A stretch of DNA of 63,571 bases, counting the filler, from Kipferlia bialata (Eukaryota): assembly GCA_003568945.1 (NCBI GenBank). It is 4 parts of 3 records of this genome, joined end to end, with 100 filler letters (N's around TTAATTAATTAA, not from the genome) between each part and the next. Parts side by side here need not be neighbours in the genome. Positions count along the whole stretch, not along the records: positions 13,700 to 40,203 come from BDIP01000186.1; 3 more parts are not named here. The stretch is one strand, 5' to 3'. The translations under genes were made by a program, and so were the position numbers. Below the pieces are notes generated by a model, which searched no databases, was not told the DNA's origin, and saw nothing but the letters and a program-made list of their open reading frames with translations. Positions 4,301 through 52,440 of the stretch are shown here, in pieces. Within the stretch, counting starts at the first letter, position 1, and the number at the start of each line of letters is the position of its first letter.

Positions 4301-7300
4301 ACTGTCCACTATGATGGTGTGGTCATAGCCACAGGCCACATACACAATCTGGGGTGGGGGTGGTGTGATACTATAGGGTAAGATATACACGGAAGCATCG
4401 TACCTTAGCTCTGTTTAGTGACACGGGCACAGCCTCCATACAGGCCTGGGGGTGAGTACGGGTAGGGATGGGGTAGAGACTCCAGCGAATAGCACCATAT
4501 ATACCCGTACCTCACTCATTGGTACCATCTTGGTATGTACCAGACCCAGCTGCCCCTTGCTGTTATCACCCACAGCATAGATCTCACCGGTGGTACTACA
4601 GGGTGAGAGGGGGAGGGGGGAGGGGTATCATGCAGTCCCACTAACACTCACTCAGCCTGCCACCACTCGTACTACAGGGGACTATAGGGGAGTATGATAT
4701 ATACACCCACTCACCCTGCCACCACGACTGCGTGCCTGGCCCCTGCCTTGACCAAGGATGCCCCACAGGGTAGGGGGAGGGTGACACCGGTGGGTATGGA
4801 CAGAGAGGACATGCCCTGGATGGGTATGTGGCCATGCATGCAGACGGCACCGGTGGAGAGGAGGGTGCATACAAACCTAAAGGGGAGAGGGAGGGGGGAG
4901 GAGGGGGGAGTGATATGTATGTATGAGAACCCCCGCTCACCTCTGTCCACATGCTATACCCTCTACATGCACAGGGGTAGATGTCTGCTTGGAAGGGGAA
5001 ACATAGTCAGGGTGGTGGGTCGCAGAGACCGACCGCCTCCCCCCCTCCCCCTCTGCCCCCTCTCTGGGCTCAGGCCTCACCCCCTGCTCCAGCCCCCTCA
5101 GTCTCATGGGTCTGTGGATGCAGTAGGAGTCCTTGGGGTCGGCAGGGGCCTCTGGCCGGTGGATGGTCTGAGCCTGGGGGGTCGGAATGGTGGATAGATG
5201 TATAGAATATATGATGATAGTATACACACCTTTGGGTACATGTACCGCTGCATGTAGTCTGAGTGCACGTCCTCTGCATGTGACCTAGGGACAGGACAGG
5301 AGGGGTCCATGCCCATCTGGCCGTAGTTGAGACCAAACCCATACACCTGGGGTCACATTACCTGCTATCTACACTTGTCACACTACTATCGGTACCTGCT
5401 TGTCACTGTTGACGACAATCGTGTAGTGCCTGCCACATGCTGCTCTCTCCACAACGCCTGAGAGGTGAGAGGGAGATAGAATGAGTGACAGATGTGTAAT
5501 GACACTGAACTCCATAAATGACTTGTATTTGTGCATGTGTATATACACATACCTGATATGCCCTTGACCCTCAGAGGCACAAGAGCAGCCTCGATGCCTG
5601 GTATTGGTCATGTAGACGGGAGGGGAGGGTAGAGAGAGGATATATAGAGGACATGGCCGGTCACTAGCTATCGCCAACCCACCTGGCAGTCCCAGAGCCG
5701 TGGCCACTATGTATATATCTCCATGATAATGTATATATTGATAATGTATATATTGATGATGTATACATTGCCAGTAGTACCTGGCAGTCCCAGGGCTGTG
5801 GCCACGTTGGTGCCGAAGGACAGGAGGCACCCACCCACCACAAGCACACCGAAGCCATCACCTGAGGGTAGAGTATGGTGAGTGTATTTGGTAGTGTATG
5901 GGGAGACAATGGGAGTCATCAGTATCAAGAAATTAGAAACAAAGAGAGAGGGAGAGAGGGAGAGCGGGGGACGGGAGGTGGGTACATGCTAGAGAGAGAG
6001 GAGGGGAGTGTCTCCACATATACCCACAGCAAAGAGAGAGGATACACCCACCTAGAGACACTGTGTCTGGGGTGGCAGCCAGGGTGCTAGATATGACATG
6101 GCTGAGCTGGTCCAGTCGTGTCATGGACTCCATGCCCATGCCATAGCCCTCTGAGAGTCAAAGTGAGATATTAGATATATATAGGAGATAGATAGGGGGA
6201 TAGAGAGAGAGAGAGAGAGAGATCATGGACTCCATGCCCATGCCATACCCCTCTGGTGTAAGTGATGTGGAAGCTGGATAGGGAGAGAGAGAGAGGGGGG
6301 GGGGGAGAGAGAGACTCCATGCCATACCCCTCCGGGGGTCAGAGTAGTACATGGGAGATGGATACGGAGAGAGAGAGAGAGAGAGAGACGGAGACAGAGA
6401 CAGAGCGATTCCATGCCATACCCCTCTGGGGATCAGGTTTGGATTGGAAGATATAGAGGAAGATGGATAGAGAGAGAGAGATGACTTGTATAGGAAGGTA
6501 TAGATAGATGGGGGGGATTCCTCTGGGGGTCAGACTAGTATAAAAATGTATATAGGTAGATTGAGAATGGGGGGGGGGGGGGGGGGGGGGGGCCCCCGCC
6601 AAACCCCCCTNNNNNNNNNNNNNNNNNNNNNNNNNNNNNNNNNNNNNNNNNNNNNNNNNNNNNNNNNNNNNNNNNNNNNNNNNNNNNNNNNNNNNNNNNN
6701 NNNNNNNNNNNNNNNNNNNNNNNNNNNNNNNNNNNNNNNNNNNNNNNNNNNNNNNNNNNNNNNNNNNNNNNNNNNNNNNNNNNNNNNNNNNNNNNNNNNN
6801 NNNNNNNNNNNNNNNNNNNNNNNNNNNNNNNNNNNNNNNNNNNNNNNNNNNNNNNNNNNNNNNNNNNNNNNNNNNNNNNNNNNNNNNNNNNNNNNNNNNN
6901 NNNNNNNNNNNNNNNNNNNNNNNNNNNNNNNNNNNNNNNNNNNNNNNNNNNNNNNNNNNNNNNNNNNNNNNNNNNNNNNNNNNNNNNNNNNNNNNNNNNN
7001 NNNNNNNNNNNNNNNNNNNNNNNNNNNNNNNNNNNNNNNNNNNNNNNNNNNNNNNNNNNNNNNNNNNNNNNNNNNNNNNNNNNNNNNNNNNNNNNNNNNN
7101 NNNNNNNNNNNNNNNNNNNNNNNNNNNNNNNNNNNNNNNNNNNNNNNNNNNNNNNNNNNNNNNNNNNNNNNNNNNNNNNNNNNNNNNNNNNNNNNNNNNN
7201 NNNNNNNNNNNNNNNNNNNNNNNNNNNNNNNNNNNNNNNNNNNNNNNNNNNNNNNNNNNNNNNNNNNNNNNNNNNNNNNNNNNNNNNNNNNNNNNNNNNN

Positions 7301-17170: not shown

Positions 17171-20095
17171 CCTAGTATCCTATCAGTAACTGGCACAGAC
17201 ACATAGGGCATGCCAGAGACAGGGTACTCTCTATCAGTACCCACATAGAGGGGGATCAAGACACAGCCGGGCTCGGCCTGAATGTAAGGGTACATACAAA
17301 TAAATATACATATATATCTATATCTATCCAGAGAGGCGGATCAGGACACAGCCGGGCTCAGCCTGGGTGAGTGAGTATATACAGAATATATATACACTAT
17401 ATTATTTCTTTTCATATACACTGGGTACACTTTATTAGTTGTATACACTTTACAAATACTATACACATAGACTATATCTCGCGTTAGTACCTCAATGTGT
17501 GCTGGGTACAGCTCTGACTTTGGATATGACGGTGCAGAGGCAGGGGGAGAGGGTCTAAAGACGAGGGTCAGATCTGGAAGTGCACGAGATACACTGCCCC
17601 TCTCCTTGGCAGCCTCGCCATCCAGCAACTCCAACTCAACCCCACTCCAGGCAGCGCCCTGCAGCATAACACACCCGCCCTTAACTCGCAAGGAGGGCAT
17701 CTTGCCGTACAGAGAACGGTTCTGGTCGACTACGTCACTGGTGACAAGCACCGGGGTAATACGGTCAACAGGGGCGCCACACTGGCGACTGGCCCACCTG
17801 GGAATTAGTATGTGTCTCTCTCTCCCCCTCTCAGTGTACACCTATACATCCACTATTACTAATTGCATTTTATGTCTCACCTCCTACACGCTGATACGAA
17901 CAAGGCCGGCCTGGCAATGTGTGTAAGGTCAAAGGGTGTGGCACTGATCGCGTAGCTTAGGGCAGAACATGCGTTCTGCAGGAAAGTGAGGTAGGAGAGG
18001 GGGTCTCCACCTGAAGTGAGATGAGAGAGAGGGGGGGGGGGGGAGAGAAAACAGTGACATAAGCAGTGCTGTTGTAGTACAGGAGGTTTCCAAGGAAAGA
18101 GAGAGTGTGTGTACAGGAGGGGTGGGGGGGGGGGGGCGTGCTTACCTGGTGCACGTGTCACTGGGAAGGCACGGTCCTTGTCCTGACATTAAGGGTGCGG
18201 TAAGAGAGAGAGAGAGAAGATAGAGATAGGTGTGACCATACAACATTCTACACGGTACCTGTACTGACACTGGTGCACTTGGCATCCCCCCTGTCCATGC
18301 CTCATATATACACTCAGTATATGAATATATACTACACGATAGTACTCTACACGATACCTGCACTGATACTGGTGCACTGGGCATTCCCCCTGTCCATGCC
18401 TCATATATACACTCAGTATATGTATATATCCTACATGATAGTGTTCTACACGATACCTGCACTGATACTGGTGCACTTGGCATTCCCCCTGTCCATGCCT
18501 CTGGGACAACACTGCTGTTGAGCATGTGCAGCACACCCTGGAGGTAAGATACATACATTTATAACTACGTATATGTTAGAGGGAGTAGATAAAGGAATGC
18601 TAACGTTTACAATATGGTACTGTTGAGCATGTGTAGCACGCCCTACAAGTCAGACTAATGGTATGCTATATATAGTATGATATATAATGAAGTGATAGAA
18701 ATAATGCAAGGATACTGTTGAGCACGTGCAGCACGCCATGAGGGTTTGGGGAGACCAACAAATATGTAGGATTGGATACATCATCTCACCTCCAAGTATG
18801 GTGTCACAGCATCCACCCTCCCATCGGACAGGTGCTTCTCAGCAGTGGTCAGGGCAGTGACATCAGCCTAGGGTTAATTCATTATACATGATTATGTATG
18901 TATATATACATTTAGTATAACACTACTCACCTTAGCAGCCTCTAGACACTGCATAGCATGTGCCATCTCCCCAGCCACAGCAGCGATAAAGGGGTCAGAG
19001 CTCTTGGAAGAGGCAGCGTCAATGCTCTGCTGCACAATTGGGACAGTTGACTCGATCCCAGAGGCGATCCTAGCCACAATAGAGAAGCGGCTGCTTGAGT
19101 CACCGCCTGTGGAGGCGTTGCTGCTAGAGGCACCACCGGAGGCATCAACTGATATGCCAGCGAGACCGGCTCTGAAGGGTGAGACTGAGGTCCACTACCA
19201 ATACATAACTCCATGTATATATATGTGAATACCTGAGCTGCAGAGCCGACTCCTTGCCACGCATCAGGAGGGCATCTCTATCGAGGCCTGGGGTAAGGTA
19301 TACAATTACATACATAAACACACACACACATATATCTCTGTTACATACTTTATGGTCCAGGATTAACGTAAGGGAAACATGTTCCCAGAAGATTATATTC
19401 CCAACCATGCTGTAAACTCCAACTAACCTAATACTCCTATGTCCTCCCCTGGTAGTATGGCACCCACTGCAAATATATACAGTATATACAATATACATAC
19501 ACATGTACATATATATACTATACATACCTAGTACTCCTATGCCCTCCCCTGGCAGTATGGCACCCACTGCATCTGGGACAGGCACACCCGCAGACAGGGC
19601 CTGGAGGGTAAGACACAGATCGAATAATTATGTGACTAACACTAATTGACAACCAAAGGCAAACTATGAAATGTCCTGAACGTCTCTTTCTCTTTCCCTA
19701 CCTGAGCAGTTGCTGATGCACAGTTGAACAGACACTCACACATGGCAAAGGGACATATATTGAATTCAATATAAATGAATAACAATATAAGCATGTATTT
19801 ACCTGGGCAGTTGCTGATGCACAGTTGAACAGACACTCACACATGGCAAAGGGATATATTTTCAAGAACATACATATATATATATATATATGTATACATG
19901 TATATCTATACATACAATAATACCTGAGATGTTGCTGAGGCACAGTTGAACAGACACTCACACATGGCAAAGATATATGAATATTTATATACATGTGTAT
20001 ATACATTCATATATATTTACCTGGGCAGTTGCTGATGCACAGTTGAACAGGCACTCACACATGGCAAAGGGATATATATATAAGAACATATATAC

Positions 20096-20135
<40 letters not shown>

Positions 20136-26100: not shown

Positions 26101-29100
26101 TAAGTGAAAGAGTGACAGATAGTGCATTGGCCATGGCAGAGACTATCCCTTGGGGGCTCAGTATGAGTACACTTATGCTATAATATAGTGATGACTTACT
26201 TGAGTTCATTCTCAAGTGGCGCAATCTTCAGGTATGCCCCGTGGTATGCTATGTTGGCAGAGACCCATCCAGACAAGGGGGCAGCGGCCTTAGAAACAGA
26301 GCGGATGCGGTCCTGGAGGTAAGCTGCCAGTCACTCTCAGAATCACAATAGTCGCGGGCACATGGCTTCTCGGGTTGAATACAAAAACAATTCTCAATTA
26401 TAGAGGTCCTATTGGTAGTATCGTACCTCATTGAAGGCCTCTGGGCTGTTCTGGATGATGCCCTTGACAGCATGAATGACCTAAGGGTTAGAGAATAGAG
26501 TGGATGATATATACTTACTGATACTATTGCAATTCTGCAGATAAATACTTGTCGGCCTTGGGTAAACATAGAAATGCCCATGACTCACCTTTGGATGCAC
26601 AGTCTTGATGTTGAGCTCCATCAGTCTCTTCTGAAAGCCAGACTTGGCCAGGAAGGCACGCATGCCTAGGGATCAGAAGGTGAAAGAGGAGACATATGGA
26701 ACATTTAGAACAGATGATATCGGTGACAGTAGATAGAGGACGAAACACAATATGGCATAGACATAACATCGAGAGACAGAGGTACACACCGGTCCAAGAG
26801 AGATCCTTCTGACCACAGAGCCTGAGAACGGCACCAAGAACAACCTGGACTGAGACGGCCGCTGAAATAGAAAGGTACAAACAGATATGAATTCACCATG
26901 TACTATGCTATATAAGCATACATCATACCTGCACAAGGTGAGGGGGAGAAGAGAATCCCCTCACTTCCTGAAGGGCACGAGGTGGGATCTGGGAGACTGC
27001 GAGCTTGGCCTGGAGGGTAAGGCTGAGACTACTATAAGAGACATGTAATAGTGTGGATATTGGTTGAATGTACCTTCTCCAGCATTGGCTTGACTTGGGA
27101 GTAGTCCCTGTCAGCCTCGGCACGTCTCGTTTCTAGGGTTAGACACTATATATTCCTAGAAACAAGGCTTGGTGCAACGAATGTATGACTATATATACAT
27201 ACACGATACGCACCAATGGCAACGGTGTCTGCGTCTAGTGTTGTCCTGAGTGCCTTGGCCTCGGCCTGCTTCACAGAGACATCCTAGGGTGAGTTCTACA
27301 CGATAACTGATCGTTCATAATACTACGCGATACCTGCATGGCCTGCTGGATGTTTGTGAGTGCCTCTGTGGCATCACGCTGTGCAGTGCTGAGCTTGCCT
27401 CTCTCCACAGAGAGTCCCTGGAGTTAGTATATATAAACATACTCCATAGAAAGATTTATTATTACAGATATCACAAAGACTCCGGAATCATCACGCTCAC
27501 TTCCGAAAGATCACAGTACAGGGATCATTACCAAGAGGAGCATATAAAACCCAATATATAGTACCTTTCTCATGTGGCTGATAGTAGACTCGCACTGCTT
27601 CAGCTGCCTGAGACCCTTTCCTGTGGTGAGTACACAAGTATACGAAGAGAATGGTATGGTTGGCTCTAGACTAACCTAGGGTGCTGCTTTCCGCTGCAAG
27701 ACTGTCCTTCTTAGACTCAACCAACTTGGTGGCAGCGCTATAGGCATACAGTACGGTCTAAGGGTCAGTCAACTCATAAAAGCCAGCTCCAATCTAAGAA
27801 TAGTTGGCAAGAGACGATATAGCGATGAGTACCTGTCCCTCCAGGAAAGGTGACTGTACGTCTGAGAGTCCACCATTTGCATGCTTATCCCTAAGGGGTA
27901 AGAGAGGGAACAGAAGTCGGAGAGCGAATAGCTCCCCTAAACAAGCAAATATCAACATTTCTGAATACTAACTGCTAATGTGTATCCATACTATTTGGGA
28001 TACCTGAGTGTCTGCACCATGTCTCCAAAGACTGTCTCATATATTATATATATATACTATATATATATACTATATATATGATACCTGAGTATCTGCACCA
28101 TGTCTCCAAAGACAGAAAAAAACTCACTAGCAATATGCTACAATATACATCCACACATAGTCCTATTATATACATACATATACATATATATAAATAAATG
28201 ATACCTGAGTGTCTGCACCATGTCTCCAAAGACAGCCAGTGTCTCAGCACTCGATGTAACAGCAGGAGTGGCCCTGGTAGATGGTGACATGACACTACTA
28301 GGCACAGGGGCAGCAGGGGTCAGGGCCTCAAGAACCTCACTGGATCCGGCACCCCTAAGTGTCAAACACAACTCAGCTCATAGTCTTGAATTGAGACATT
28401 GAATATATGAATATGTTATACATACCTACTCCACTCTGCGTCGCTAACTGGAATGGCAACCATAGAGAGATGCCTCTCGACAGCTGGGTAGCTAGCCAAC
28501 AGAGCACACTGGCGAGTATCCATCTCTATCGCGTAGCGGACAGTCTGGCCAAAGGTCTCAAAGAGGCGCTCCCTTGCCCTCTCCCTCTCTGCCTCTCCAC
28601 CTGCCCCACCCTCTCTCTCCACCATGCCCTTCAACAGTCTGCTGATCTCGTAGGGGGAGACCAGGCTGCTGATGTTGGAGGGGTTGTCGAGGAGGGATGA
28701 TAGGCACCCGAGCCAGGTGTCTGCGGCAGAGGAGAGAACGGCAGGGGAGAGGAGGATGACAGTCTCGCGGAGAGGGGAGTCATCCTCTCTCTCACTCTCA
28801 GAGGCCTCGGCTAGAGCATCGGAAATGGAGGAGAGGGCCTGTGGTGAGTACTATAGCAACATACTATACTGTCCTTATTTATGACTCACACTGTGTTATG
28901 CCATATACCTGATATCAAAAAAAGATGGATATATATAGTATTATAGAGAGTACCTGTGTGAGTGTGGATGCCACGGCTGTAGGCCCTGCTGGTGGCTGAA
29001 CAACAGTGCAACCACGGGCGGCATACAGCGAGGTCACGCAGTGCCTAAGGTGGGGGCCTGAGGCCACACCTGCGACGGCAAAGACCTACGCGTAAGATAG

Positions 29101-32100
29101 TCCAAAGACAGGTATAGTGTAGCATAATCAAAGGTGTACCTTGCTACCCTCCAGAGCCGTGTCACACCACGCTGCCTGGGAGAGGAATGGCTGTACTAGC
29201 GGTGTGTGGAGGGGTGAGTACAGAGTGTTGGCATGTCCCACGGCAGAGGCTAGAGTAGAGGCATAGACGCTCATGGGAATCACACAGAGTCTCCCTCCCT
29301 CAGGTGTAGTTGTGTCCTTGGTGTCTAAGGGAGTCTCGGAAGAGTCCTCTCTTCTCATGGTTGGACTTCCAAAGGGATCACTTAGCTCTCTACGCATGGA
29401 TCTGTCGTGGTCCCTGCCGCCTCTGCCCCTAAGGGCATCCAACCAGGACTGCTGTACAACACCTAGGGTAAGTATCTGACTGCTCGCTACACTCTAACAA
29501 TTTCACAGTATATACATGTTATGTATGTAGTATAGTATACCTCGTAGAACGTCACTGTCTGCCCCTCCTAGGGGTATCATGCCGTCTGAGCATGCATAGC
29601 CAGAGATATCAATATATATAACAATCTAACACTGAGAAACTTAGTAATGTAACATACCTAGTACAACGTTACTGTCTCCCAGGGGTATCATGGCGTCTGA
29701 GTATGCGTTGCCAGACGACTTGGCAAGGGCAGCCAGGTAGGGGGAGGAAAGGCCGTGCTTGGCAGTGACCTATCATAAGTACCATAAGTAAAGATCCAAC
29801 ATAAATACTATTGAACTATATGAAATACCCATAAGTGTATGTTTGAGTACTGGATGAACTCCGGAAGACATGGGAGAGAATAATGGACAAGATGACAAAT
29901 ATACGAATCCATACCTTGGCAAGAGCCTTGACAGTGAGGCCCCTGGCTGCCCCCAGCTGCATACTTGCACTAAGTACCCCTAGGCCAGAGTGTACAAAGG
30001 CATCTGGCACAGAGACAACCTTACTCGCACCCTTGCCCTGACTGACCTCTGGGGCAAAGAGAGAGAGTCTGTCAACCCATCTGGGGGTAAGAAATAGACA
30101 TAGTGTATCAATATTAGAGTCAAATATCACTCTCATAGTACCTAATGAGGGTGTAGACGTCAGGCACTGCAGAGTGCAGTAGGTGCACACTGACATCACC
30201 CCTCGAGGGGTCTCTAGCCAGCTGGCTCGTCACGTGATCAATCAACTTGCCAAGGGCCTGAATGGTTAGCATTGGTTCAACATGCAACTTACTCGATATG
30301 TGATAGATCGTGTACCTTAGTGAGTAGCTGGCATGTCTGCACCATGGCAGTAGCCAGCATTTGCAGGGTGCCCTTGAGGTCCTTGACCCCAGAGAACATG
30401 GGGTGCTTAGCCACACTACGCAGAAGACGGTGCCTGATTGTCAGGTATATGAATATTCACGATATTCCGCAACAGTAGGGACAAATACTATACTAACCTG
30501 GTAACGGCCACCATCTCGCTGCTGTTGAGTCTGGGCAGGGACACGGTAGCGCACAAGGAAGCGAGCCTCGATCTGATTGGCTGTCTCCCACCCTCATCAC
30601 CGCCTCTGACTGAGAGCACAAACACAACCCCGCTGACCCTGGCGACAGACACATCGCCACCCTCACCCTCAGCGACAACACCAACCTCGCCCTTCTCCAC
30701 CACGCTCCTAATCACACAGTGCAGGGGTGTGTGGCCGTAAGTGTCACGCCTAGGCAGATCCGCATCGCGTAGGTACACGACGAGTCTCTGGCCCTTGGGG
30801 GGGGAGAGAACCACCCTTCCATCGGGGGCACTGCCCTTAGAGAGAGAGTTGGTCAGCATGGTTACTAGTGTGGAAGCGTCCGTGTCCACGCAACACGTGT
30901 GCTCGACGTAGATGGTATCCTGCATGGATGACACTGTCTGTCTCACTAGAGTGGCCTTGCCACTGCCCCTGGGGCCACTAAGGACGGTACTCACACCTGC
31001 ATCCAGGAGCATCCTGAAGGTAAGAGATATACAACAAGAGAAGAAGACAACACCAGTCTTGTTGAAACAAGAACAAGAGTGGATGTCCAGAAATACCTCA
31101 GGGTAGGGACTGCCCCAGAGAGTGACGGAAGGGGACACGTATTAGGGGACAGAGCACAGGTCTGGAAGTGAGTAGACAAAAAGAGAATCAATAATACTCA
31201 TAATATGGTACTGAAGGGATTCATCACTGAAACTACGCGATGAGTACCTTGTCCTTTGGCTCTGGTCCGTTGTCTCCCATGGCGACAGGGAGGGTAGATC
31301 CTGGGGGTACCCAAAGCCTAGGGTTAGATTGAAGACCAAACAAGTATAATCTAATATGCAAGAAAGAAGTGTAACTGATAGGCTATATACCTTCCCCTTG
31401 CAAACACTGGCTGTCTGATCCTCCTAGTCATCTTGTCATGGAGAGGGGGGACAGTCACAACGGCAAGCCTGGCGTGAGCACGGTATCGTCAAGTCACATT
31501 CATAACTGTTACCAGAGCACCCAACCCTTCAGACTCTACCTTGATATAGTGGCTGGGGATGCATGCTGCAGAGAGTCAGTCTCAAACAGGAAGGAGACAG
31601 GGGCAGTGGTGAGGTGCTGCCTGACCATCAGAACACAATAACCCTGAAGAATAGAGAAATTGCAACTCCGTTGTAGTGTACGTTGTATATATCCTATACT
31701 TACTTCATGTAGGCAGAGACGTAGTCCTCTGTCAAATGAATCATATCTGATCACAAAACAAGTATATATATAGTAAACTGAAACATATACATATACTCAG
31801 CGTACTCACTTCATGTAAGCAGATACGTAGTCCTCTGTCTGTGGGAACCTAACCCTCTCTCCACTTGCAAGGGTGAGGAGATGGTTGTCATCAAGAGCAC
31901 TGTTGAGAGCCTGAATGTCAGGGTTACTTACACGATTAATTTGACAGGTACCAATATTCGGACTACGTACCTCAACCCACTCAGGGTCCACGTCTCCATC
32001 GCATACAATCCAGGTCCAGACTCCCTGGGGGTAAGGGAATGATCTACACAGAGTGTCTTGGGATACATATGGATGTGATAGAAATGTATATACTGTACAA

Positions 32101-35100
32101 GGACACACCTGTGCCTGTCCTGCTGCCACCCTTGACTCTCTGGTCAGGATACCATCGTGCCACTCTCCCTGACGTAAGTACAGGTTACAACCTCCTGCAG
32201 ACTCACAAATACCCACTACAGCGCGCCACCTTCCAATTTCAGAATAATTTGGGTGACTCGTATATACATACCTTGTCTGTGTATCCGAGGAGTGCCCGTC
32301 TGTCCACAGCCTTGGGACACACCTCAACAATCCTGACATTAGCACTAGAGAATAACGCGATACAGTTCTTACACGATACCTGATGACGAGGCCACAGATG
32401 GACTGCACAGCCTTGGCCAGTGCCTGCCTCACTCTAGTCTTACCACACCGGCCCTCACCCACCAGGGCAACACCTATCTTACTCGATAGAGATCTGTACA
32501 GGGAGAGACAGAGATCCGTCTGCTCGGGGGTTACTCCACCTAGGGTCAGGTTCTCAATCGCAAAACTGAAGAATTTTAACAAACCAAGCTGAACTATAAT
32601 ACTGATATGATGATAAGTAACCCATACCTAGTGATCCCATGACCTCCTCCACGGCGTGCCTCAGCTTGAGTTCCACACTTGGCAGAGGGGGTGCAACAAA
32701 GGCATTCTTGTCAAAGACGTCCCTGGAGTCAGAGTGGAAGAGATATTAACGGGGTCAATAACAACTGACAATTCATCCACAATACAACCACAATACGTCC
32801 ACAATATCAATGTTTGTATACCTTAAGACTCCCTCAAATACTGGAGCGTCAAGAGCGCTGATACGGGGATGGACGGCAGAACGGAAGGCCTACTCGTCAG
32901 CAAAGAGCGTTATCGTGTATACACAAATGTGACGTGTGTACTCACCTGCACCAGCACAGCCTGCTCACAGATTGTGACATCCTTAGAGTACTGCTCCTTG
33001 GAAGGCTTAGACTTGTAGCTCTTCTTGAGAGAGAGGACAGCGCCAGGGAGCATACCGGCAGCCTGAGAGTAAGAGAATCACATACTATATGTTTCGTGTA
33101 GATATGGTTAATCGTGTGAAAATACCTGCTTCAGCACTGTCTGTAGGCCTCTCATACCCCAGTCCACAAAGGAGGACTGGGTCAGGCTCCTGACAGTTAG
33201 AATATGGTCATATATATACCATCAAGCTCAGTAAGGATTGTTCAATTGCCAGAGGAGTCCTAATAATATATAGAATACTCTGATACCTTCCACTGATGCT
33301 GCACACAAGCATGGCCTTTGTCGACAGGTGGCTGGAGGTCTTGAAGCCTGGATGAGAAAGACGAAATACATAGTATCATATATAGAAACAGTGTTAATCA
33401 GTCGACTGGCCACCAAGAGTACCAGATACACAGAAAGAGTGCTAATCGTCGACAGACCACTCACCATCTGCAAGTAGAGCAACATGGGCAATTGTGTCGA
33501 TATCAGCTCTGGCCATGTGGACAGGTCTAAGGAGCTGCTTGACATTGTCTGGCAGCTGGGAACGGCCCCTTACAATTAGATCATGAGTATTCTCACAAAG
33601 ACTTGAAGAGAAACTTATAGTTACAAATAATGAATACTACACCATGTATATATACTGTACTATATATACTATGTGAAGTATGGTACCTGTACTCTCTGGA
33701 CGCAGGGTTGAGTGTGACAAACACAGCTGCACCCCGTGTGACATGCACAGCTCTGCCACCAAGGGACAGAGTGGACTGCGAGTTAGAATAGAACAGGAAC
33801 AGACACAATGCCTGAGACATAGTAACATCACTGACAGGCAAGATCACATAACTAACCTCTCCCACTCCTCTGATGCTGGACTGAATGGCCTTGATGTTCA
33901 AATATATTATATATATATATAAATATGAATATATAGACATACTATATATATAGACATACTATATATATATATATATGAATATATAGACATACTTCTTAGA
34001 GTATAAGAGCGAAAAATGTCATTCAATGTAGAATACGCACCTCTCCCCCTCCTCTGATGCTGGACTGGATGGCCTTGATGTCATTGGCCAAGAGGTGCAG
34101 AGTGCGCTCAGACAGTCTGTTGAATTCATCGAAACAGCCAAAGGCACCAAGGAGAACAACTCCTAGAGAGTAAGAAAGCAATAAGTACCCAAACAGCAGA
34201 ACTAATACACTAAATGGGAGGAAGTGATGATAATGGTACCTGTAAGCACTCTTCTGATGGCCCCCACATCTGCCTCTGCATCACAGTTGAAGGTGATGAC
34301 TGGCCTTCCAAGCACACCAGCTAGGTACTTGACAGTCTCGGTCTTGCCTGGTGGTGAGGGTTCGACTCCCACTCAAATACACTTCTAGATAGATGAGAGG
34401 CTAAGAGCCTTACCTGATCCAGCGGGACCGTACGGGTTTCCTCCATAGCCAAGACCCATACCGACCATACAGGCATCAATGCACTTATCAGTCAGAGCAG
34501 AGTGCACGATTCGTGCCCCAAGTCCCTATCGGTGAGAAAATAAATACACGATATATGAGGGTGTAACTACGCCGTGTCTGGTACCTGGTACTCCCAGAAG
34601 TATGGGTATGACACACCCATACATACACATGCCACGTCCATGCCCCCTAGGGATAGGTCCCCAGAGGCATTGGGAGAGGCAACAGGGGCAGGGACAACCA
34701 GTCTGTACTTGATCTCCCTGGGGGTGAGGGGAGTAATCTATTGTCTATTCTACATCGTAGTAGTATTCTACGATACAGTACCTGAACCACTGGTATGCCC
34801 TCTCCCCAGGTGTGCTACACTCAATCAGTCTCCTGCACATTGACATGTGATGGACAAGGGTGGTGGTCAGGATACGGGTCTTGAGGTGGAATACCTCCCT
34901 GTCGCCCTCACATGGGAGGTTCTTCAGGGCAGCTAGGGACTGGAATGAGAGAACTTCGATGACTGAAAGAGTAGAGAATGCGACAAGTGAGATTGAAGAC
35001 AGTCTCCTATTCCATACCTTTGTTGTGGAAGTGAGTGCCCACTTCAGCCTGTGAGTGCACTCCTGAGGATGAGACTGATTCTAGGCACCAGAATAGAATA

Positions 35101-38100
35101 GTATGAACACTGTATGGCCGATTGAGAAGTTGAGTTGCCTAGAGAAAAGAGAAGAAACAAGAGAAATAGAGAGAACACACCTGGTGAGGATCTGGTCCTG
35201 TCTCCCCCCCATCTCCCACCAGTGCATCCTCTATATCGGCACAGAAGAGTACATTGGCAAGGAGACAGGCAATCTCTCCGGGCAGGGTGTTGGGATCCGT
35301 GGATGCGTTCCCGAGACCGGCCTTGGAGAGGAAGTATGTGCCATTGTCCCTGATGTCAATATACCGAACAATTGAAACAATACATTGTGGAAGTGACTAG
35401 TTGTGTATACGTACCCTCTTGTCACACTACCGGGTGGCAGTGGCAGGCAAGGGGGTAGCTTTGCCCCTGTCAGCAGAGAGTGGCGCAGCGAGGAGGATAT
35501 ACCCTGGGCAAGCTGAGGAAGCCACACCTAGTAGTTAGAATAGGAGTCCGATATGGTAGTAATATCATAAAGACTAGCGGTGCAATACCTCGCTTCTGGT
35601 GTTGGCTCTGCATGGGATCCGTCTCTGTAGTGGGATGGTCTCGCCATCAACGGAGGAGAAGCCTAGAGTCAGTAATTTGACTCATAACTACAAATCACAA
35701 ACTGAGACTAACAGAATAGTGTGTGAATAGGTGAGGAAGGTCATGTACCTACAATCTCCCTCTTTGTGGTCCCATCCACAGTGACTGCAGCCACAGCTCC
35801 AAAGAGCTTCCTGAGGTCAGAAAACAATACAATACTCACACAGCAACCAAAGAACACAAAGACAGTATTCTACAAACCTGAGGTGTGGGGTCACTGCCTC
35901 TGGATCAGCGGCACTGAGAATGGTAAGGAGATCCTGATGTGAGGGAAGCAGGAAACACATATATCGTGTAGAATCGTAAACCTACACGAACCTGATCTCC
36001 GACGAAGTAGAACCTCGGGAATGCCCTCCTCTTATCATCCAGGTACTCAGAGAGGGCCCTCTCTACACCCTTGAGAACAGACTCACACAGCTCCAGAGCC
36101 CCAGGTACATTCCTCTCCCCGTCTCTCTCTCCCTCACCGTCCGTATCTGCGTGTGCGTAGAGATCACTCAGCAGGATAGGGGGCACGAGGAGGAGACCAG
36201 TCGCAGGGTATGCGCCATGTCTGCTGTCGGGTGCCTCTCTCTCTCTCTCGAGGCCCTTCCTCTCTCCCCCGACCTCAATGTCTGACACTAGTGTGACTAA
36301 GGCAGTGCACACGACAGAGAGAGCACGGTAGAAGGGGGAGGTCTGGGCGGGTAGGGCGTTGTTAGCCATGACGGGCTCAAGGTAGGCAACCTTCCTCTGC
36401 ACCTATTGTGAGAACACGGTTGGTGACAAGAATGGGACAAGTGAATCATACCTTTGTGATACAGTGCAGCACACGTGATATGTCCCCAATAGTCTCCTCG
36501 TAGTGGGTGACCTCGTTCTTGGCAGTGGCGTAGTGAGGGGAGGTCTTTACAGACTGGAGCATCGCCTCTCTCTCAGCAAGACCTAGGGGTCAGAAGGGAC
36601 GGAGAAACATAGTAAATACATGTATCAAGGTTTCGAATTATAGAATATAGATAATATAGATAGATATAGATAGAATAGATACAATAATAGAATAATAATG
36701 TGAGCAAGTATGTATATACCTGATAGAACACGTGTGACTCCCCCCACAAAGGGCAAGCATGTCACTGTGTACTCAGGTGGGGTCTCATGACTGAAGATGT
36801 CCATGTCACGCAGGGCCTTGACTGGTGGTGAGTACTAGACACCTACACGATATATATCAGTTTCTACGCGATACCTGCGGGTCCCACTCTCTTCACAGAG
36901 GCCTCTGTGAGCTTAAATGGTGTGACGGTGAGGTTGCAGTGGATGTTGATGTATGCAGCAACGTCCTCCACAACCTTCCTGACCTCTCTCTCTCCTAGGG
37001 CCACCGAGACAATACTCCTGATGGCCTGGGGGTTAGGGACATAATATACACAAAATGATTACTTAGATTACATATGATATATAACTACCAACCTTGGTTC
37101 TTGCCGTCAGGTGTGGAATGTGTGACTGCGACACCTCGATAGACATACTCTTGCACTCAGCGGGTGAGTATGCAGCAGCAATGTCACCGACAGTCAGACG
37201 GGCAGGGGGGGAGGCAGGGCAAGGGATAGCGAGGGCATTGCATATCTGGACCCAGTGACTGGCAACTAGGGCGTCGCAACGAAGTAGTGTGAGGACAGGG
37301 GTCAGAGTGGAGACTAGCTCAAGATCAGCAGATACCCTGGATATCAGACAATAAAGCGAAGTAGAGCTAGCATAAATAGAATATAATAAGTGAATAAGGA
37401 ACAAACCGCAGAAATGGAAATGTATTGGGGAAGAGTAGAAAACTTACCTTGCGGAGAGGGTGCGACACAGTGTGGAGCAAGGTGAGTCTGCGAGGGTGTT
37501 GACCTCTCTCCTATCGAAGGAGTCCTGCTCCACTGGCTCCTTGCCCCACTCTGCCAGCATGTCATCTACAACATACAGACGGTGCCTAACGGTAAGATGC
37601 GAAAATATAGCAAAATAGAGGGGCGACAGAATCAGTATGACAACCAAGGAATACAAAGGATGTTGGTAAGAGTTGGAAATAATATACTATTTGAATATGA
37701 GAACAGGCCCAATAACAGAGAACTATTGAATATGTCATATACCTGATTGAGACCCAGTCCTGCTCGAGAATACCCTCTCTGATACCCTTGCTCACACTCT
37801 CATGCTTGGACAGGAGGGACAGAGTGTGTCTGGCGAGCTTGGCCTGATGATTAGTCATAAACACTTTTGTGATTATTGCTAACTATCTATATACACAAGA
37901 GTATACACAGGATTATGAGGCCGAAATAGTTAAATTTACCTGGGAAAGGATATCTGCGAATGTGGCTGCAGCCAGGCCAGTAACAGAGGAGAGGAGAGCA
38001 AACACCTCCTCCTCTGCACCTTTTTTAGTCTGAGGGGTCTTTGGAGAAGGTGGAGATCCACTGGCAGCAGAAGCGCTGCCCAGTAGAATGGCACGATTGG

Positions 38101-40153
38101 CACTGACTAGCTCAATGATCCTGACATCAGTAAATTAGAAAGACCAGCTTCATAGTTCTAGTACTCAAGAGAGAAACACAATGTGTATGAAAGCATACCT
38201 ATCTGCCACTGCCACCAGCATCGACAGGGACTCCTGGGCATCTGCCCAGCCTGGTGTCAATCGCGTAACAACCCACCCAGCTACTCATCGTGTAGAAAGC
38301 CACATACCTGGTACAGTCACCACTGTCAGCGCCTTCTCCCCGTCCTTCCTCTTGTACACCCAGCCGAGTGGATGCCCAGCCACTGCAGCACAGAGGGAGG
38401 CAGACACACTCTCCGTGACTTGTGATACGGCGTCCATGCCCTCTCTCAATAGGCCAGCGGGGTATCTGGTGGGTCAGAGGGTGTGGGTTCGATTCCAGCT
38501 ATTGACACTTTACCTTGGGTCTGCCCCTAGCTTCTGCTTGATAGACTCCAGGATGACCTTGACACCATCGTGGACTGGTGGTAAGAAAGTGTGAGAGAGA
38601 GAAGGAGGAAGAGAGAGAGGTACTCAAAAATATGGGCAAGAGAGACACCAGGTAGTGGGGGATAACTGCTACACATACCCTTCCCACTAACGTCTCTCGC
38701 GAGGTTGTCGAGTGAAGTGATGGCTCTACGGCAGGTGCCGCACCTGAGAGTGAGATACTACACTAGAGTGGTTATTATATCAGTCTTATGTACAGTTCTC
38801 ATACCTCTCCTTCAGTAGCTGCACCATGGTCTCCTGTCCAGAATGAGACAGAGAAGTCACAGTCTCCTCCATCAGATTGAGAATCTGAAGGTGAGATCAC
38901 TGTGGATACACTAATAGCCAATCAGATTGTTCAATGTTTTACATTCACATCATCGATACTGTGTGTATCGGTGATACCTCAAGAGATGCCAGCAGCGAGA
39001 GAGGTGTGTCCTCTCCCTCGTCCTCTCCCTTCAGCTCGGCCTCGGCAAGGGCAACCGCACCTGGGTTATTAATGTATAATATGTATTTAGATATAGAGTA
39101 TTGACATATATGCATATCATGGTACTCGGCCTCGGCAAGGGCAACCGCACCTGGGTTATTAATGTATAATAAGTATTTAGATATAGAGTATTGACATATA
39201 TGCATATCATGGTACTCGGCCTCAGCAAGGGCAACGGCACCTGGGTTACATACAGCATGTAAAATGGTCAATAATAATAACTCGATTATTGCTGTACTAT
39301 AGATATATATATATACATACCTGCCATGTCATTCAGAGCTGCACTGTCCGTCAGGGGTGCCTGCAGTCTAGTGACAAGGGCATTGCACCTCAGAGAGACA
39401 TCGCCAGAGAGAGAGGCAATGCTACCCTTGGAGTAAGTAAGTTATAATGGAAAGAAGATATATAATAATTAATATGATAATAGCATTACGAATAGAGACA
39501 TCGCCAGAGAGGGACGCAATGCTACCCTGGGGGTGAGTATAATAATAGAGGATGAGTCTAAGTATATTTGAGAGATTCAGTGTAAGTATCTATAGAATAG
39601 AGAATAGTACAAGAATACCTTGAGAGAGCGGCATATGAGCCCCGAGAGCAGTCTAGGCTGTCTGTCGAGTTGGTTGCATGCCATCTTGACATCCAGGGTC
39701 AGGTGGCAGGGGGAGGGGATGGACAGGGTGGTGGCTGGGTGAGTATCAAGATGAAAGCGTACAAAGGAATACAAATATCGGTACTATTAACGACAATTCA
39801 AATATAAATGGTTAATGTGACATTCAGAGTGAGGTGGCAGGGGGACGGGATGGACAGGGTAGTAGCTGGGTAAGGAGAGGGGAGACCGACATAATATATA
39901 ATACTATTCATATATATATATATATGTAGTTAGTGTGACATCAAGGGTCAGGTGGCAGGGGGAGGGGATGGACAGGGTAGTGGCTTGGTGTGAATAATAG
40001 GAAAGCATCCAGGAACACCGTTATATAGATGTGACTTAGTGTATACAAATAGATAGCAAGAGTTAGGTGGCAGGGGGAGGGGATGGACAGGGTGGTGGCT
40101 GGGTAAGAGAATAAAGAATACACACAGAAGAGCATCACTACTGAGAGTCATTC

Positions 40154-40200
<47 letters not shown>
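17171..40200 (-). CDS. DYNC2H1: Cytoplasmic dynein-2 heavy chain (DHC1b, retrograde IFT motor), partial, many introns
   Basis: Linker QRKVAYLEPV..YLDDKRRAFPRFYFVGD (35905-36402). AAA1 GNPYGPAGS|GKTETVK..FNCD..GAFGCFDEFNRL (34100-34500). AAA2 GEGRCGKT, WIVCDGDVDPEWVE|ALNSALDDNHLLTLASGERVRF. AAA3 GPRGSGKA. Stalk/MTBD LAVSQIPPRALQEVR. AAA5 LLSVLNEADGDIIDNE. C-terminal LQGAAW and PLYVGTDRE. GNPYGPAG and the 'ICDGD.DPEW' form match dynein-2. Confidence 0.9.
18255..18500 (-). repeat. Three ~100-nt tandem units, each an exon 3' end (EAWTGGMPSAPVSVQ) plus GT donor
   Basis: Direct repeats; visible as a triple peptide in ORF 18142-18558. Confidence 0.95.
19699..20420 (-). repeat. Exon-echo array: five copies of an exon 3' half plus donor, and three copies of its acceptor plus 5' half
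   Basis: PFAMCECLFNCASAT(S/A)Q|GT at ~19699, 19800, 19921, 20018, 20133. AG|EN.Q.LPPCVAS at ~20190, 20292, 20380. Confidence 0.95.
21209..23930 (-). repeat. Dense cluster of intronic duplicated exon termini within the dynein gene
   Basis: Pairs or triplets at 21209-21345, 21623-21772, 21842-22045, 22088-22265, 22330-22492, 22547-22790 and 23535-23930. Confidence 0.9.
39031..40110 (-). repeat. Exon-echo arrays (acceptor plus exon start)
   Basis: GAVALAEAE x3 (39031-39248), acceptor duplicate (39395-39535), ATTLSIPSPCHLTL x4 (39690-40110). Confidence 0.95.
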
Positions 40201-40203
<3 letters not shown>

Positions 40204-40303
40204 NNNNNNNNNNNNNNNNNNNNNNNNNNNNNNNNNNNNNNNNNNNNTTAATTAATTAANNNNNNNNNNNNNNNNNNNNNNNNNNNNNNNNNNNNNNNNN
40301 NNN
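40204..40303. other. Artificial contig linker N-TTAATTAATTAA-N
   Basis: 12-mer at 40248-40259 within Ns. Confidence 0.97.
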
Positions 40304-41201
40304 CATGGAACACCCCAGAGACTGGGTCGTACATCAGTACCTCATCTATCCCAGCATATCCGTCGTGAGGTGTGTACTTATACGCATAGTGTCTATCAGG
40401 TATCATCAGTATGAACCTCCCCACAGAGACCATATACTCCGGAAAAAATCCATGGGGACTTTTCACATCACAGTGAGCCAACCTGATCATCAACACTTCT
40501 AGGAAACTATGTCAATATTAGGTGACACTGTGGTGAAATGAACTTGTATGGTTCAGCAGGTGAGTATAGACAGACGTGTGGGAGGGTTTACATAGCGTTA
40601 CCATACCCGTGGTCCTCAGAGTAACTCCACCAACTTGGTGGCACCAAGTATCACACCTGCCACGGAAGTACACCACACCTTCATGTATGACACTGGCTCT
40701 GTACATGTGCAGCCGCAGTGCAGCCATGTCTAATGGATGTCTCCTCCAAACATGTGTCTCAGGGTCTAGGATCTCTGTGGTACCAACGTAGCTACTGGGA
40801 GCCCTTGACCCACCGAGCAGCAAGAGAGAGCCATTGACACAAAGACACATGGGTGTGATCCGAGGAATAGGTGTGTGCACAGTATCCTGCTCACTCTCAC
40901 CCATATACTCCTCACCCTCAATCTCCATCCACCGAAGCGTCGCAAGGTCAAGCTTGTACACAAGCGTCCTAACTGGAAGAATACGAGCGTCAAGGTCGTT
41001 GGTACCGTAACGGGTGACCCAGTTTACTACATACACAGACCCAAGCGAGTCAGAGGTTATCGTTATGTTGTACTTGGAAAAGGTGCTTTGCCGCCCACTT
41101 TTCGGTGTCGGTGGGGCAGCGATCAGTTCCCTTGAGAGGACACCCTCTTCGTCAACCCTTAGGATGTAGTACCTCATATGAGATTGACAGTAAGCATACA
41201 C
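40304..41201 (-). CDS. Divergent kelch-repeat-like protein, 3'-truncated by contig end
   Basis: VYKLDLATLRWMEI, CVNGSLLLLGG..TEILDPETHVW, VIHEGVVYFRG, SVGRFILMI, VLMYDPVSGVF. The two ORFs are probably joined by an intron near 40500-40600. A further 5' exon is likely. Confidence 0.65.
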
Positions 41202-50217: not shown

Positions 50218-52440
50218 TCACTTGGGGATGCCAAGGGTGGGGGCTCTCCTCTTCCTCTCCTGGGGTTATATAGGGTATATGCATCTATATATATATATAT
50301 ATGTAGATGCACATGTAGATACGTATATATATATATGTATGTATGTATGTATATATGAGTATAATGAGATGTATATATGCAAAATCACCTTCCTCTTCCT
50401 CTCCTGGGGCATGGAATGAGATGTATGTAAATATACAATAATCTATATACATAAAGAATATAAATTTAGTACCATATACATATAGGACACACTAAAGTAC
50501 ACCATAGAGTACACTATCGTACCTTCTCCTTCCTCTGGTTTCTCTTGAAGGCCTCGAAGCATGCGTTGTACCTCTGACTATGCATAGGGCCCTAGGGGTT
50601 AGGAATATATATATATAAATATATCGAAAGAGAGAGAAGTATACATATATCCACAAACATGTATATATACATGTATATGGAGAGAGGGTGAGAATCTGGC
50701 TGTGCCTGCATAGGGCCTTGGGGGTTAGGATCATATATACAAAGACACGCACTAATATAAAATTGTGTATAGAATATTGTATTTGGTACAATTATCTCCA
50801 TGGTGCAGGTGCGTCAACTATCTTGAATACTGATATGTATTTCTGATGAATCTTATCGTACTGAATGGTGTATCGACAGTATACAGAATATAGGTACCTT
50901 GAGGGGACTGCATGCTTTGGGGCTGTCATCTCTGTTGTGGAACACAGTGCCTGGGGGTGGGGGTGTATAAATAAATATATATATATATAGTTATATAGTA
51001 GTACATACATGAGTAGAATAGAATCATATTGTGTTATACTCACGGGTTTCTCTGCTATGGAACACATGTCATGGATAAAGGGACAAGTGCCACACAATAC
51101 ATAGTGTCCCATAGAGCCATTTCAAACATTCATACCTTCCGCCACCGAGCCACATACACGGAGTGTGTACCCATACATATGAATAGTATAGTGTAGTTCC
51201 ATACCTCCTGCCACAGACCCATATCTACTGAGTATACATATATGTGTGTGTGGAACTTGATACAAATATGTATGGTGTATATTGTACAGTATAGCACCAT
51301 ACCTCCTGCCACCGACCCACATCCAAACAGGTCGTAGTGGCACACGCGCTTGGCAACTAAGGTTAGAAGAATGTTAGAGGAGTGTTAGAGTGGCAGGGGA
51401 GGGGGGAGAGTATGGAAGCTAATACACTTGTTCACTGCATGGACAAAAGAGGATTAGGGTGGAGTACTTGGAGAGAGAGATATATATATATACCCTACCT
51501 GTGTTCCTGCCAGCTGCCGTGGCCGGGTACTGTCTCAGCTGGTGGTCCTGAGGTGGGAATAGTTGTATCTCCTATATAGGACATATAGTGAGTGTTCATG
51601 ACAAGAGAATATATGTCTGGACAGTTCATTGGTGGGAACAAGAGAGAGAGAGAGGGAGAGAGAAGTAGTACCTCACTGCGTGTCTTTGCCAGAATGTCAG
51701 ATGGCATATATATATATACTGGGTCTATATATACACATATGTATATATTACCTCGCTGCGTGTCTTTGCCAGAATGTCATGGCATATATATATACTGGGT
51801 ATATATTCATACATACACATGTATATAATACCTCGCTGCGTGTCTTTGCCATTATGTCCGAGGCAGTCACTATGTGCCCCCCATCACTCTCTGTCTCTCT
51901 CCCCTTCTCCCCCTCCCTCTCCTCCTCAGTGGTCTCTCCCTCAGTCTCTCTCTCCCTCTGAGAGTGTGTGTTTCTCTCTCTCCCCCTCTCCCTACCACCG
52001 CACATACCTCTGTTCAGCACTGCCACCTCGTGGTAGATGTCAGAGTCAGACATGCCCTGGGGGGTGAGACGAAATGGCGTAATAGATGTAGGTATTGGGG
52101 AGGGGGGGAGGAAGAGAGAGAGAAAGAGAGAGACACCACACGGGTGTCAAGAAGATGGGGCGGGAGGGATGAGACACGAGAGAGAACGTAGATTGACATA
52201 TCACCCAGTGAGGGACACATCAAGTGGTCAATATGAAGAGAGAGAGGGAGAGCACTCACGTTGAGCTCTGTCTCTGTGTGGAAGAATGACATGGGTGAGA
52301 GGGGGGCATCGACAGTCTCTCTCTCTCTCTCTCTCTCCCTGGGGGAGTCTCCTGCTGTGCGATAGCCTGAGGTCAGTACACATATGTAGAACATGAAAAG
52401 ATAAAGTGGCACCTCATACAATACAATATACCAATCCAGT
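50218..52440 (-). CDS. Multi-exon gene 3' part; C-terminal Cys/His motif resembling a Luc7-type zinc finger
   Basis: Phase-consistent splicing gives ..DIMAKTRSE|DHQLRQYPATAAGRNT|VAKRVCHYDLFGCGSVAG|GTVFHNRDDSPKACSPLK|GPMHSQRYNACFEAFKRNQRKEK|ERKRRAPTLGIPK-TGA. Confidence 0.55.

What the first reader, a model, noticed from the sequence alone, without database searches (positions are those of the whole stretch)
17265..40110. 'Exon echoes': introns archive synonymously diverged copies of the neighbouring exon end plus splice site
Seen: in more than 20 dynein introns, and in other genes here, 20-60 nt of the flanking exon terminus recurs 1-4 times inside the intron. Each copy is anchored on the junction (exon end+GT, or branch point-AG+exon start) and often has its own distinct AT-rich spacer. 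A hand count over six arrays (18255, 21209, 21623, 22088, 22330, 39690) gave about 33 synonymous versus about 5 amino-acid-changing codon differences from the functional exon. The arrays were chosen by eye, ragged edges were ignored and the changes are not fully independent. Inference: a dead tandem duplicate should give roughly equal numbers or more replacements, so the echoes seem to have diverged while still coding. The simplest model is repeated capture of junction+intron pieces from diverged alleles, for example one-sided strand invasion in exon homology followed by end-joining in non-homologous introns. That would make introns a fossil record of allelic recombination and a route to intron growth and splice-site turnover. 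I know of no description of this pattern.
Basis: partly seen in the sequence, partly recalled or inferred. Interest (0 to 1): 0.92.

Follow-up and report, generated by a model that had tools for sequence, protein, structure and literature searches.

The report
Intron echoes that archive old alleles
In a protist dynein gene about one intron in five carries short copies of the neighbouring exon end with its splice signal, and these copies differ from the working exon mostly by silent changes, so they are likely left-over pieces of other alleles kept in the intron; the layout is already known from lancelets ("mirages"), the silent-change bias appears not to be.

Summary
Real. In a dynein-2-like heavy-chain gene (likely Kipferlia bialata or a close relative), 19 of 90 modelled introns (20 with one weak case) hold 36 copies of the adjacent exon end plus splice site; 34 of 35 tested keep GT/AG. 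DNA contigs span 13 of 27 laid copies unchanged at normal depth; a spliced RNA contig uses the full exon. New anatomy: each intron holds one ordinary GT-AG core plus AT-rich spacers of at least 41 nt, units about 100 nt, one shared far breakpoint per array. The layout is the known amphioxus "mirage"/human F7 repeat, and this scan noted such junction copies before on other DNA. A published amphioxus mirage alignment shows the same silent bias by my hand count (13:7), with copies carrying the other haplotype's exon variants. Best reading: junction-spanning duplications, filtered by splicing, refreshed by recombination among diverged alleles. No second allele of this organism could be examined.

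The parts
17172..39734 (-). Dynein heavy chain gene (dynein-2-like), 90 modelled exons; 5' end lies beyond the gap at 40204; probably one more 45-nt exon at 35018-35062
   Evidence: ORF 3692 aa without stop; Pfam AAA_7, DHC_N2, AAA_6, AAA_9; best PDB match DYNC2H1 for one exon; RNA? contig X2 record 8 fits the exon sums for 17490-28837
39735..40160 (-). Intron (cut by gap) with 3 acceptor-type echoes: 40052-40098, 39936-39983, 39818-39865; all four two-site combinations present among exon and copies
   Evidence: no read data laid here
39427..39618 (-). Intron with 1 acceptor echo 39494-39526
39061..39320 (-). Intron with 2 acceptor echoes 39215-39240, 39125-39150; two near-identical 64-nt spacers (recent expansion)
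33776..34040 (-). Intron with 1 donor echo 33857-33897
31621..31809 (-). Intron with 1 donor echo 31704-31733
29463..29657 (-). Intron with 1 donor echo 29541-29604; 6-nt in-frame insertion, mostly replacing changes (the main counter-example)
27891..28204 (-). Intron with 2 donor echoes 28085-28115, 28004-28032
25616..25817 (-). Intron with a short sub-threshold acceptor echo at about 25680-25696
   Evidence: seen; not counted
23558..24075 (-). Intron with 3 acceptor echoes 23898-23920, 23789-23807, 23674-23696; spacers homologous to each other and to the core
   Evidence: RNA length sum 417 of 417 excludes them
22381..22762 (-). Intron with donor echoes 22652-22679, 22550-22576 and acceptor echo 22432-22480
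   Evidence: removed whole in RNA contig (22380 joined to 22763) and spanned by one DNA contig with 0 differences
21875..22215 (-). Intron with donor echo 22090-22140 and acceptor echoes 22001-22033, 21923-21953
   Evidence: spanned by DNA contig 21423-23427
21507..21721 (-). Intron with donor echo 21627-21670
21234..21433 (-). Intron with acceptor echo 21306-21332 (5 silent : 1 replacing)
   Evidence: just under the cut-off
20670..20852 (-). Intron with acceptor echo 20743-20785
20223..20575 (-). Intron with donor echo 20484-20532 and acceptor echoes 20366-20412, 20278-20324
19601..20135 (-). Intron with 4 donor echoes 20021-20072, 19924-19972, 19803-19854, 19702-19753; two sequence types alternate along the array
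19288..19527 (-). Intron with donor echo 19428-19471
18538..18789 (-). Intron with acceptor echoes 18715-18737 (the only copy that lost its AG) and 18620-18642
18183..18456 (-). Intron with donor echoes 18358-18402, 18259-18303 (4 silent : 0 replacing)
   Evidence: RNA joint 18181-18456 skips 274
17278..17490 (-). Intron with acceptor echo 17329-17362
   Evidence: RNA joint 17276-17490 skips 213
1676..1887 (-). Other gene: intron with 2 donor echoes (1788-1814, 1730-1748)
   Evidence: gene model not RNA-checked
5598..6600 (-). Other gene: donor echo 5683-5707 and acceptor echoes 6223-6252, 6411-6425
   Evidence: gene model not RNA-checked
50260..51831 (-). Other gene: echoes at 51752-51778, 51672-51701, 51205-51225, 51136-51158, repeat region 50579-50739
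   Evidence: gene model not RNA-checked
52816..53330 (+). Plus-strand gene: acceptor echoes 52900-52934, 52985-53020; donor echo 53215-53253
   Evidence: gene model not RNA-checked

Best explanation
The echoes are short duplications of an exon-intron junction that are spliced out with the intron, and they are likely refreshed by recombination between diverged alleles, which would explain why they differ from the working exon mainly at silent sites. Step 1 (inferred from anatomy): a break near a junction is repaired by copying about 100 nt across it and rejoining without long homology, leaving working exon end + splice site + spacer in front of the old exon end + old, ordinary intron (mirror image at acceptors). 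Step 2 (inferred): splicing filters the products; only those with an AT-rich spacer of about 40 nt or more and an exon piece under about 65 nt survive, and the site next to the full exon is the one used (shown for the major RNA form). Step 3 (inferred): unequal crossover or conversion between homologous chromosomes pairs a copy with another allele's working junction, adds units that keep the founder's far breakpoint but carry that allele's exon variants, splice site and intron flank, and can also swap the working exon itself. Step 4 (partly shown): once in the intron a copy decays neutrally. If all replacing changes are post-capture decay (pN 0.042), the silent divergence left to alleles is about 0.21 - 2 x 0.042 = 0.12.
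For: Strict polarity and null. One ordinary GT-AG core per echo intron (17 cores: median 81 nt, GC 0.37; 72 echo-free introns: 83.5 nt, GC 0.39; p 0.2-0.6) with 35 spacers of GC 0.25 (p 4e-5 against cores). Units 79-184 nt, median 102. All spacers >=41 nt and echoes <=64 nt, against 46% per event for random duplications of that size. 11 of 11 spacers behind a working donor have GC <=0.30 against 15% of 66 ordinary 5' ends. Shared far breakpoint in 10 of 10 multi-copy arrays. pN/pS 0.18-0.25 under five trimming rules, bootstrap over arrays 0.08-0.45 at widest, against 0.56-0.79 for dead duplicates simulated through the same detector; 0.18 (0.11-0.28) in the RNA-checked part. Echo-versus-echo differences 35 silent: 18 replacing (non-independent pairs), one four-gamete case, no gradient of divergence with distance from the exon. 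GT/AG kept in 34 of 35 although flanks beyond about 20 nt are near background. Outside support: in amphioxus BflGb6 (PMC3087553, supplement 4; my hand count) six copies differ from their exon at 13 silent and 7 replacing codons, the two haplotypes' exons differ at 5 silent and 0 replacing codons, and haplotype-1 copies carry the haplotype-2 state at 4 of those 5; the paper calls the species highly heterozygous.
Against: No second allele seen: DNA and RNA contigs showed no exon variant at 90% likeness over 17200-29200 (contigs drop variants, so weak), and two metagenome scans found no relative. Other genes: 19:21, pN/pS 0.49 (CI 0.24-0.95), compatible with dead copies (unverified models). Replacements are no more conservative than random (mean BLOSUM62 -0.56 vs -0.49, p 0.61). 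The 29541 copy is nearly all replacing. Changes private to the less diverged copies are only 7:5. Allelic origin does not by itself explain why spacers are AT-rich and unlike the core, and TA content is no higher at the far breakpoint than near the splice site. The amphioxus support is one locus, and sharing could also reflect ancestral states.
Confidence: 0.55

Rival explanations
1. One reading: each copy is an independent capture, by one-sided strand invasion and end-joining, of a junction plus a piece of a diverged allele's non-homologous intron.
For: Silent excess; spacer unlike core in 26 of 32 comparisons; intact splice sites; a core-adjacent copy identical to the exon beside an unrelated flank (28004-28032).
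Against: Independent captures should not share one far breakpoint (10 of 10 arrays do); spacers resemble each other in 10 of 19 pairs; flanks next to the junction are more alike than random splice sites (0.65-0.68 vs 0.40-0.43); spacers do not have the composition of ordinary introns. It may still describe the founding step.
Confidence: 0.17
2. Ordinary dead tandem duplicates (plain mirages) from one lineage; the silent excess in dynein is the working exon's own silent drift plus chance, and spacers are scrambled by TA slippage.
For: Other genes 0.49; random-like replacements; a 2-nt frameshift in the 22550 copy; random ~100-nt duplications span exactly one junction in 57% of draws, so polarity needs no special mechanism.
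Against: This model gives pN/pS of at least 0.5 (0.56-0.79 simulated); dynein gives 0.20 (0.12-0.32), and 0.29 (0.15-0.52) even without the six best arrays; dead splice sites are intact in 34 of 35.
Confidence: 0.17
3. The copies are kept by present-day selection because they are used: as alternative splice sites, decoys, or as donors that replace the exon end at the DNA level.
For: Splice signals score near working sites; 11 of 18 echo acceptors outscore the working one on a simple matrix; 7 of 32 echo sites would give an in-frame, stop-free insert; no stop among 426 echo codons (about 1 expected, so weak).
Against: The RNA contig skips them (major form only); a partial exon cannot replace the exon end by splicing; conversion or deletion fast enough to select on copies would erase the silent differences (reasoning, not simulated); replacements look random.
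Confidence: 0.08
4. Assembly artefact: haplotypes stacked in tandem by the assembler.
For: Short-read data only; run X1 may be the data the window came from; 14 of 27 laid copies are not inside a listed contig (breaks fall at the most alike repeats), so copy numbers there rest on the window alone.
Against: 13 of 27 copies lie inside five separately assembled contigs with 0 differences, four at depth 445-478 and one at 317, like other loci's contigs at 367-475; 3-5 distinct versions occur in one array; the joint between spacer and mid-exon has no homology to stack on.
Confidence: 0.03

Closest known systems
'Mirages' of amphioxus (Adh3, globins BflGb6/BflGb9, PGBD5, troponin C); PMC3087553 (passages, supplement 4 seen), PMC3902484 (one passage seen); the original Adh3 paper was not held
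   Same: Tandem copies of an exon-intron boundary inside the intron, at donors and acceptors, with splice signals, not disturbing the mRNA; by my hand count also silent-biased and sharing variants with the other haplotype's exon.
   Different: Here gene-wide (about 20 of 90 introns), 1-4 copies, in a metamonad protist; whole units are mostly not alignable (mirage units 81-100% alike); one ordinary core intron plus AT-rich spacers with a floor of 41 nt. The passages seen do not discuss silent bias ('synonymous' 0 times in the main text).
Human F7 IVS7 37-bp VNTR; PMC1557585 (abstract seen)
   Same: First unit spans the exon-intron boundary; downstream pseudo-donors stay silent and the most upstream donor is used, as in the 11 donor arrays here.
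   Different: A homogeneous minisatellite at one locus; does not cover acceptor arrays, where the last, not the first, acceptor is used here.
Intron gain by tandem duplication of an AGGT-containing segment; PMC3265369 (search listing and start of abstract only)
   Same: Local duplication of coding sequence changes intron-exon structure.
   Different: No new intron arises here; the duplicate lengthens an existing intron and is removed with it.
Tandem duplication by strand invasion followed by end-joining
   Same: Would give working copy + filler + old copy with one fixed breakpoint.
   Different: Not known to me as junction-specific; untested here.

Membership tests
Mirage (amphioxus type) | Tandem duplicate spans an exon-intron boundary and lies in the adjoining intron | tested here: met
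   36 copies, all junction-anchored and polar
Mirage (amphioxus type) | Both 5' and 3' boundaries can be duplicated | tested here: met
   17 donor-type and 18 acceptor-type copies
Mirage (amphioxus type) | Copies keep GT/AG yet regular splicing is unaffected | tested here: met
   34 of 35 keep the dinucleotide; RNA? contig removes the introns whole over 17490-28837 (major form only, one run)
Mirage (amphioxus type) | Minisatellite-like units, 81-100% alike over exon and intron parts | tested here: not met
   Exon parts 81-100% alike, but spacers match the core in 6 of 32 and each other in 10 of 19 tests; only three or four arrays are minisatellite-like
Mirage (amphioxus type) | Copy number differs between haplotypes or cells | not testable with these tools
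   one sample, contigs only; no relatives found
Mirage (amphioxus type) | Concerted evolution within the cluster | tested here: inconclusive
   some identical or alternating units (19601-20135, 39061-39320), other arrays with three deeply different versions
F7 IVS7-type pseudo-donor array | Most upstream donor is used | tested here: met
   joints 18181-18456 and 22380-22763, and exon sums
Intron gain by tandem duplication | A new intron is spliced between the duplicates and both contribute to the mRNA | tested here: not met
   copies are absent from the RNA contig
Tandem duplicated, mutually exclusive exons | Whole-exon copies with both splice sites, either end surviving | tested here: not met
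   only the junction-proximal end is ever found; apparent far-end hits come from short exons where the two 60-nt queries overlap

The most novel reading that the evidence does not exclude
Junction echoes and mirages are a general record of past alleles in hyperdiverse eukaryotes: introns grow mainly by trapping working splice junctions of other alleles, so that one near-homozygous genome stores 3-5 former versions of an exon end, reveals silent diversity of 10% or more and inter-allelic recombination (cryptic sex or hybridisation) in a free-living metamonad, and offers ready-made splice sites for turnover.
Probability: 0.4. Interest if true: 0.78.

Novelty: new variant of a known kind. Interest (0 to 1): 0.6.

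Why it matters
If the allelic reading holds, a single draft genome yields evidence on population diversity and recombination in a free-living fornicate, where sex is hard to observe, and a genome-wide echo census becomes a direct test. It also names the process behind nearly all long introns in this gene, and gives natural competition assays for splice-site choice: near-perfect sites are ignored, including upstream acceptors, in a lineage whose branch point sits 2-5 nt from the AG. The same silent bias in a published lancelet alignment suggests an overlooked property of mirages rather than a one-species oddity.

Tried and rejected
No whole genome is held, so no genome-wide count. Two runs were listed, none on record as RNA; X2 is taken as RNA because its contig skips GT-AG introns. 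Read data were obtained only for 17200-29200, so arrays at 29463-40160 and in other genes have no read support; one search shows 15 of 46 joints and 16 of 907 pieces. Metagenome scans for other alleles: none and two 20-residue ankyrin-like chance matches, L001 and L002, not used. Homologue search with a dynein exon: nothing (proteins over 2000 aa not searched). Atlas not reached. The Adh3 mirage paper is not held, so what it says on silent changes is unknown to me. No earlier notes on this genome. Rejected: detection bias as the source of the silent excess (the detector even missed the most silent-rich copy, 21306); mutually exclusive exons; microsatellites at the far breakpoint as the trigger (p 0.27-0.55); conservative replacements; AT-directed decay as a discriminator (silent S>W 27 vs W>S 22, uninformative); a two-subgenome hybrid as sufficient (three or more distinct versions in arrays 18183, 20223, 21875). 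Dropped from counts: the sub-threshold copy at 25680 and further short copies at 6300-6530; the first automated model took six echoes for exons and was corrected against frame and RNA lengths, so those length matches are not fully independent of the model.
Full report
Setting. The window is a string of contigs with N gaps at 6611-7465, 13600-13699, 40204-40303 and 52497-52596. The only relative found for a kelch-type ORF at 46206-47183 is a Kipferlia bialata protein (34% identity), so the organism is likely K. bialata or close to it (inference). Its genome paper reports 124,912 GT-AG introns, a short-read assembly and two k-mer peaks suggesting diploidy (PMC5874029; passages and methods section). 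Introns here end in a branch point 2-5 nt before the AG (73 of 90), like the fused sites described for diplomonads (PMC6679479, passages).

Gene model. A dynamic-programming model, corrected by hand, gives 90 exons from 39734 to 17172 on the minus strand and 3692 codons without a stop. Four of eight exons scanned hit dynein Pfam families; one matches dynein-2 best in the PDB. A 12,768-nt contig of run X2 skips GT-AG introns, shows no differing letter, joins 17276-17490, 18181-18456 and 22380-22763 directly, and its lengths between listed pieces equal the exon sums in four of four intervals (198, 801, 417, 1290 nt, allowing for bases that fit either side). The model was partly tuned to these sums. 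So in 17490-28837 the major mRNA uses the full exon and no echo. A contig cannot show rare forms.

Observation. Each intron was aligned to both ends of both flanking exons and to all other exons as control. Hits above the control range fall only in two classes: end of the upstream exon, start of the downstream exon. Two detectors each found 35 copies; union 36 copies, 22 arrays, 19 of 90 introns. Echo introns cluster (8 adjacent pairs, 3.4 expected, p 0.004). An annotation-free scan of the whole window found 23 regions of complex local direct repeat, 22 of them at such arrays, none in 40300-49900 and one unexplained pair in 53700-63571. Run X1 contigs span 13 of the 27 copies in 17200-29200 with no difference; X1 may be the window's own data, so this excludes stacking, not sample peculiarities.

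Silent bias. Codon differences are 64:37 or 68:35, positions 19/18/78. Silent sites are 26-32% of the aligned bases. Array-weighted pN/pS is 0.18-0.25 under five trimming rules and 0.20, CI 0.12-0.32, by the second detector. Dead duplicates simulated through the first detector give 0.56-0.79 (five settings, 1500 trials each). Some silent changes are first-position leucine swaps, which a third-position mutation bias would not give. Replacements are not conservative and one copy has a frameshift, so replacing changes look like decay after capture. Reading: copies diverged mostly while coding, then decayed.

Cutting echo introns at the copies leaves exactly one GT-AG segment of ordinary length and composition and 1-4 spacers that are much richer in AT and TA steps. 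Spacers are 41-143 nt, echoes 19-64 nt, units median 102 nt, the two lengths negatively related (rho -0.48, non-independent). Random duplications of 79-139 nt meet both limits in 46% of one-junction cases, all 21 arrays here do. Copies in one array end within 4 nt of each other (10 of 10). Intron flanks are more alike than random splice sites near the junction and fade to background by 20-30 nt. Splice dinucleotides survive in 34 of 35; 11 of 18 echo acceptors outscore the working one on a matrix that handles branch-point spacing poorly. How upstream acceptors are skipped is unexplained; exon definition plus AT-rich intron marking is my guess.

Mechanism. A single-lineage model, with or without conversion between copy and exon, cannot push pN/pS below about 0.5 (reasoning; simulation for the no-conversion case). 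Divergence under coding constraint on both sides needs alleles or diverged lineages. Shared breakpoints argue for one founding duplication per array and later homologous expansion. Unequal exchange between a copy and another allele's working junction adds a unit with the old far end and a fresh, functional junction, which fits intact splice sites, related but diverged spacers, alternating types at 19601-20135, the four-gamete case at 39735-40160 and the lack of an age gradient. The implied allelic silent divergence is about 0.12. Against this, the sample shows no second allele in contigs and no other isolate was found.

Known relatives. [quoted passage not shown] In supplement 4 of PMC3087553 I counted by eye, leaving out the last five ragged bases, a 6-nt insertion and a 1-nt deletion: haplotype-1 copies versus their exon, 13 distinct silent and 7 replacing codons (one a stop); the two haplotypes' exons, 5 silent and 0 replacing; haplotype-1 copies carry the haplotype-2 state at 4 of the 5 sites, and two haplotype-2 copies carry a haplotype-1 state at one. 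That is the pattern the allele model predicts, in a species the paper calls highly heterozygous; it is one locus. Searches for a printed description of silent-biased junction copies (listings and abstract starts only) found none, but the original Adh3 paper could not be read and subscription journals are largely missing.

Verdict. A real, strong structural feature; a known kind (mirage) in a new lineage, at gene-wide density, with a distinct core-plus-spacer build and a silent bias that is solid in dynein, unproven elsewhere, and best explained by recombination among diverged alleles. Shown: copies, polarity, physical reality, skipping in the major mRNA, silent excess in dynein, core/spacer contrast. 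Inferred: founding repair event, splicing filter, allelic refreshment. New variant of a known kind; interest 0.6.

Noticed in passing
window 35018-35062 (-): A 45-nt in-frame segment with a good acceptor and donor inside the modelled 241-nt intron 34940-35180; probably a real exon missed by my model, which would leave no long intron without an echo.
   Followed up: partly
window 46206-47183 and 48317-49219 (-); related ORF 40518-41210: Two tandem, diverged kelch-type beta-propeller ORFs of a family whose only relative found is a Kipferlia bialata protein.
   Followed up: partly
window 36874, 27333, 25330, 18456, 18357 (-): The same 11-nt extended donor motif opens four unrelated dynein introns and one echo and never occurs on the other strand; could be a preferred extended 5' splice site or the trace of an intron family.
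   Followed up: no
window 53700-63571: Intron-rich genes with no echo array, in contrast to the echo-rich genes on either side of the gap at 52497; echo density is strongly regional.
   Followed up: partly
window 55324-55351 and 55511-55538: The one local direct repeat not tied to a modelled junction.
   Followed up: no
window 42371-44690 (+): Two long overlapping reading frames, the first with a P-loop-like motif, in an intron-poor, echo-free stretch; a short intron or a frameshift may join them.
   Followed up: no
window 13600-13699, 40204-40303, 52497-52596: N gaps with a central 12-base TA linker: the window joins separate contigs, so gene neighbourhoods across them mean nothing.
   Followed up: yes
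window 50389-50403 (-): A 15-nt segment with both an acceptor and a donor that resembles both the next exon's start and the previous exon's end: micro-exon or double echo.
   Followed up: no
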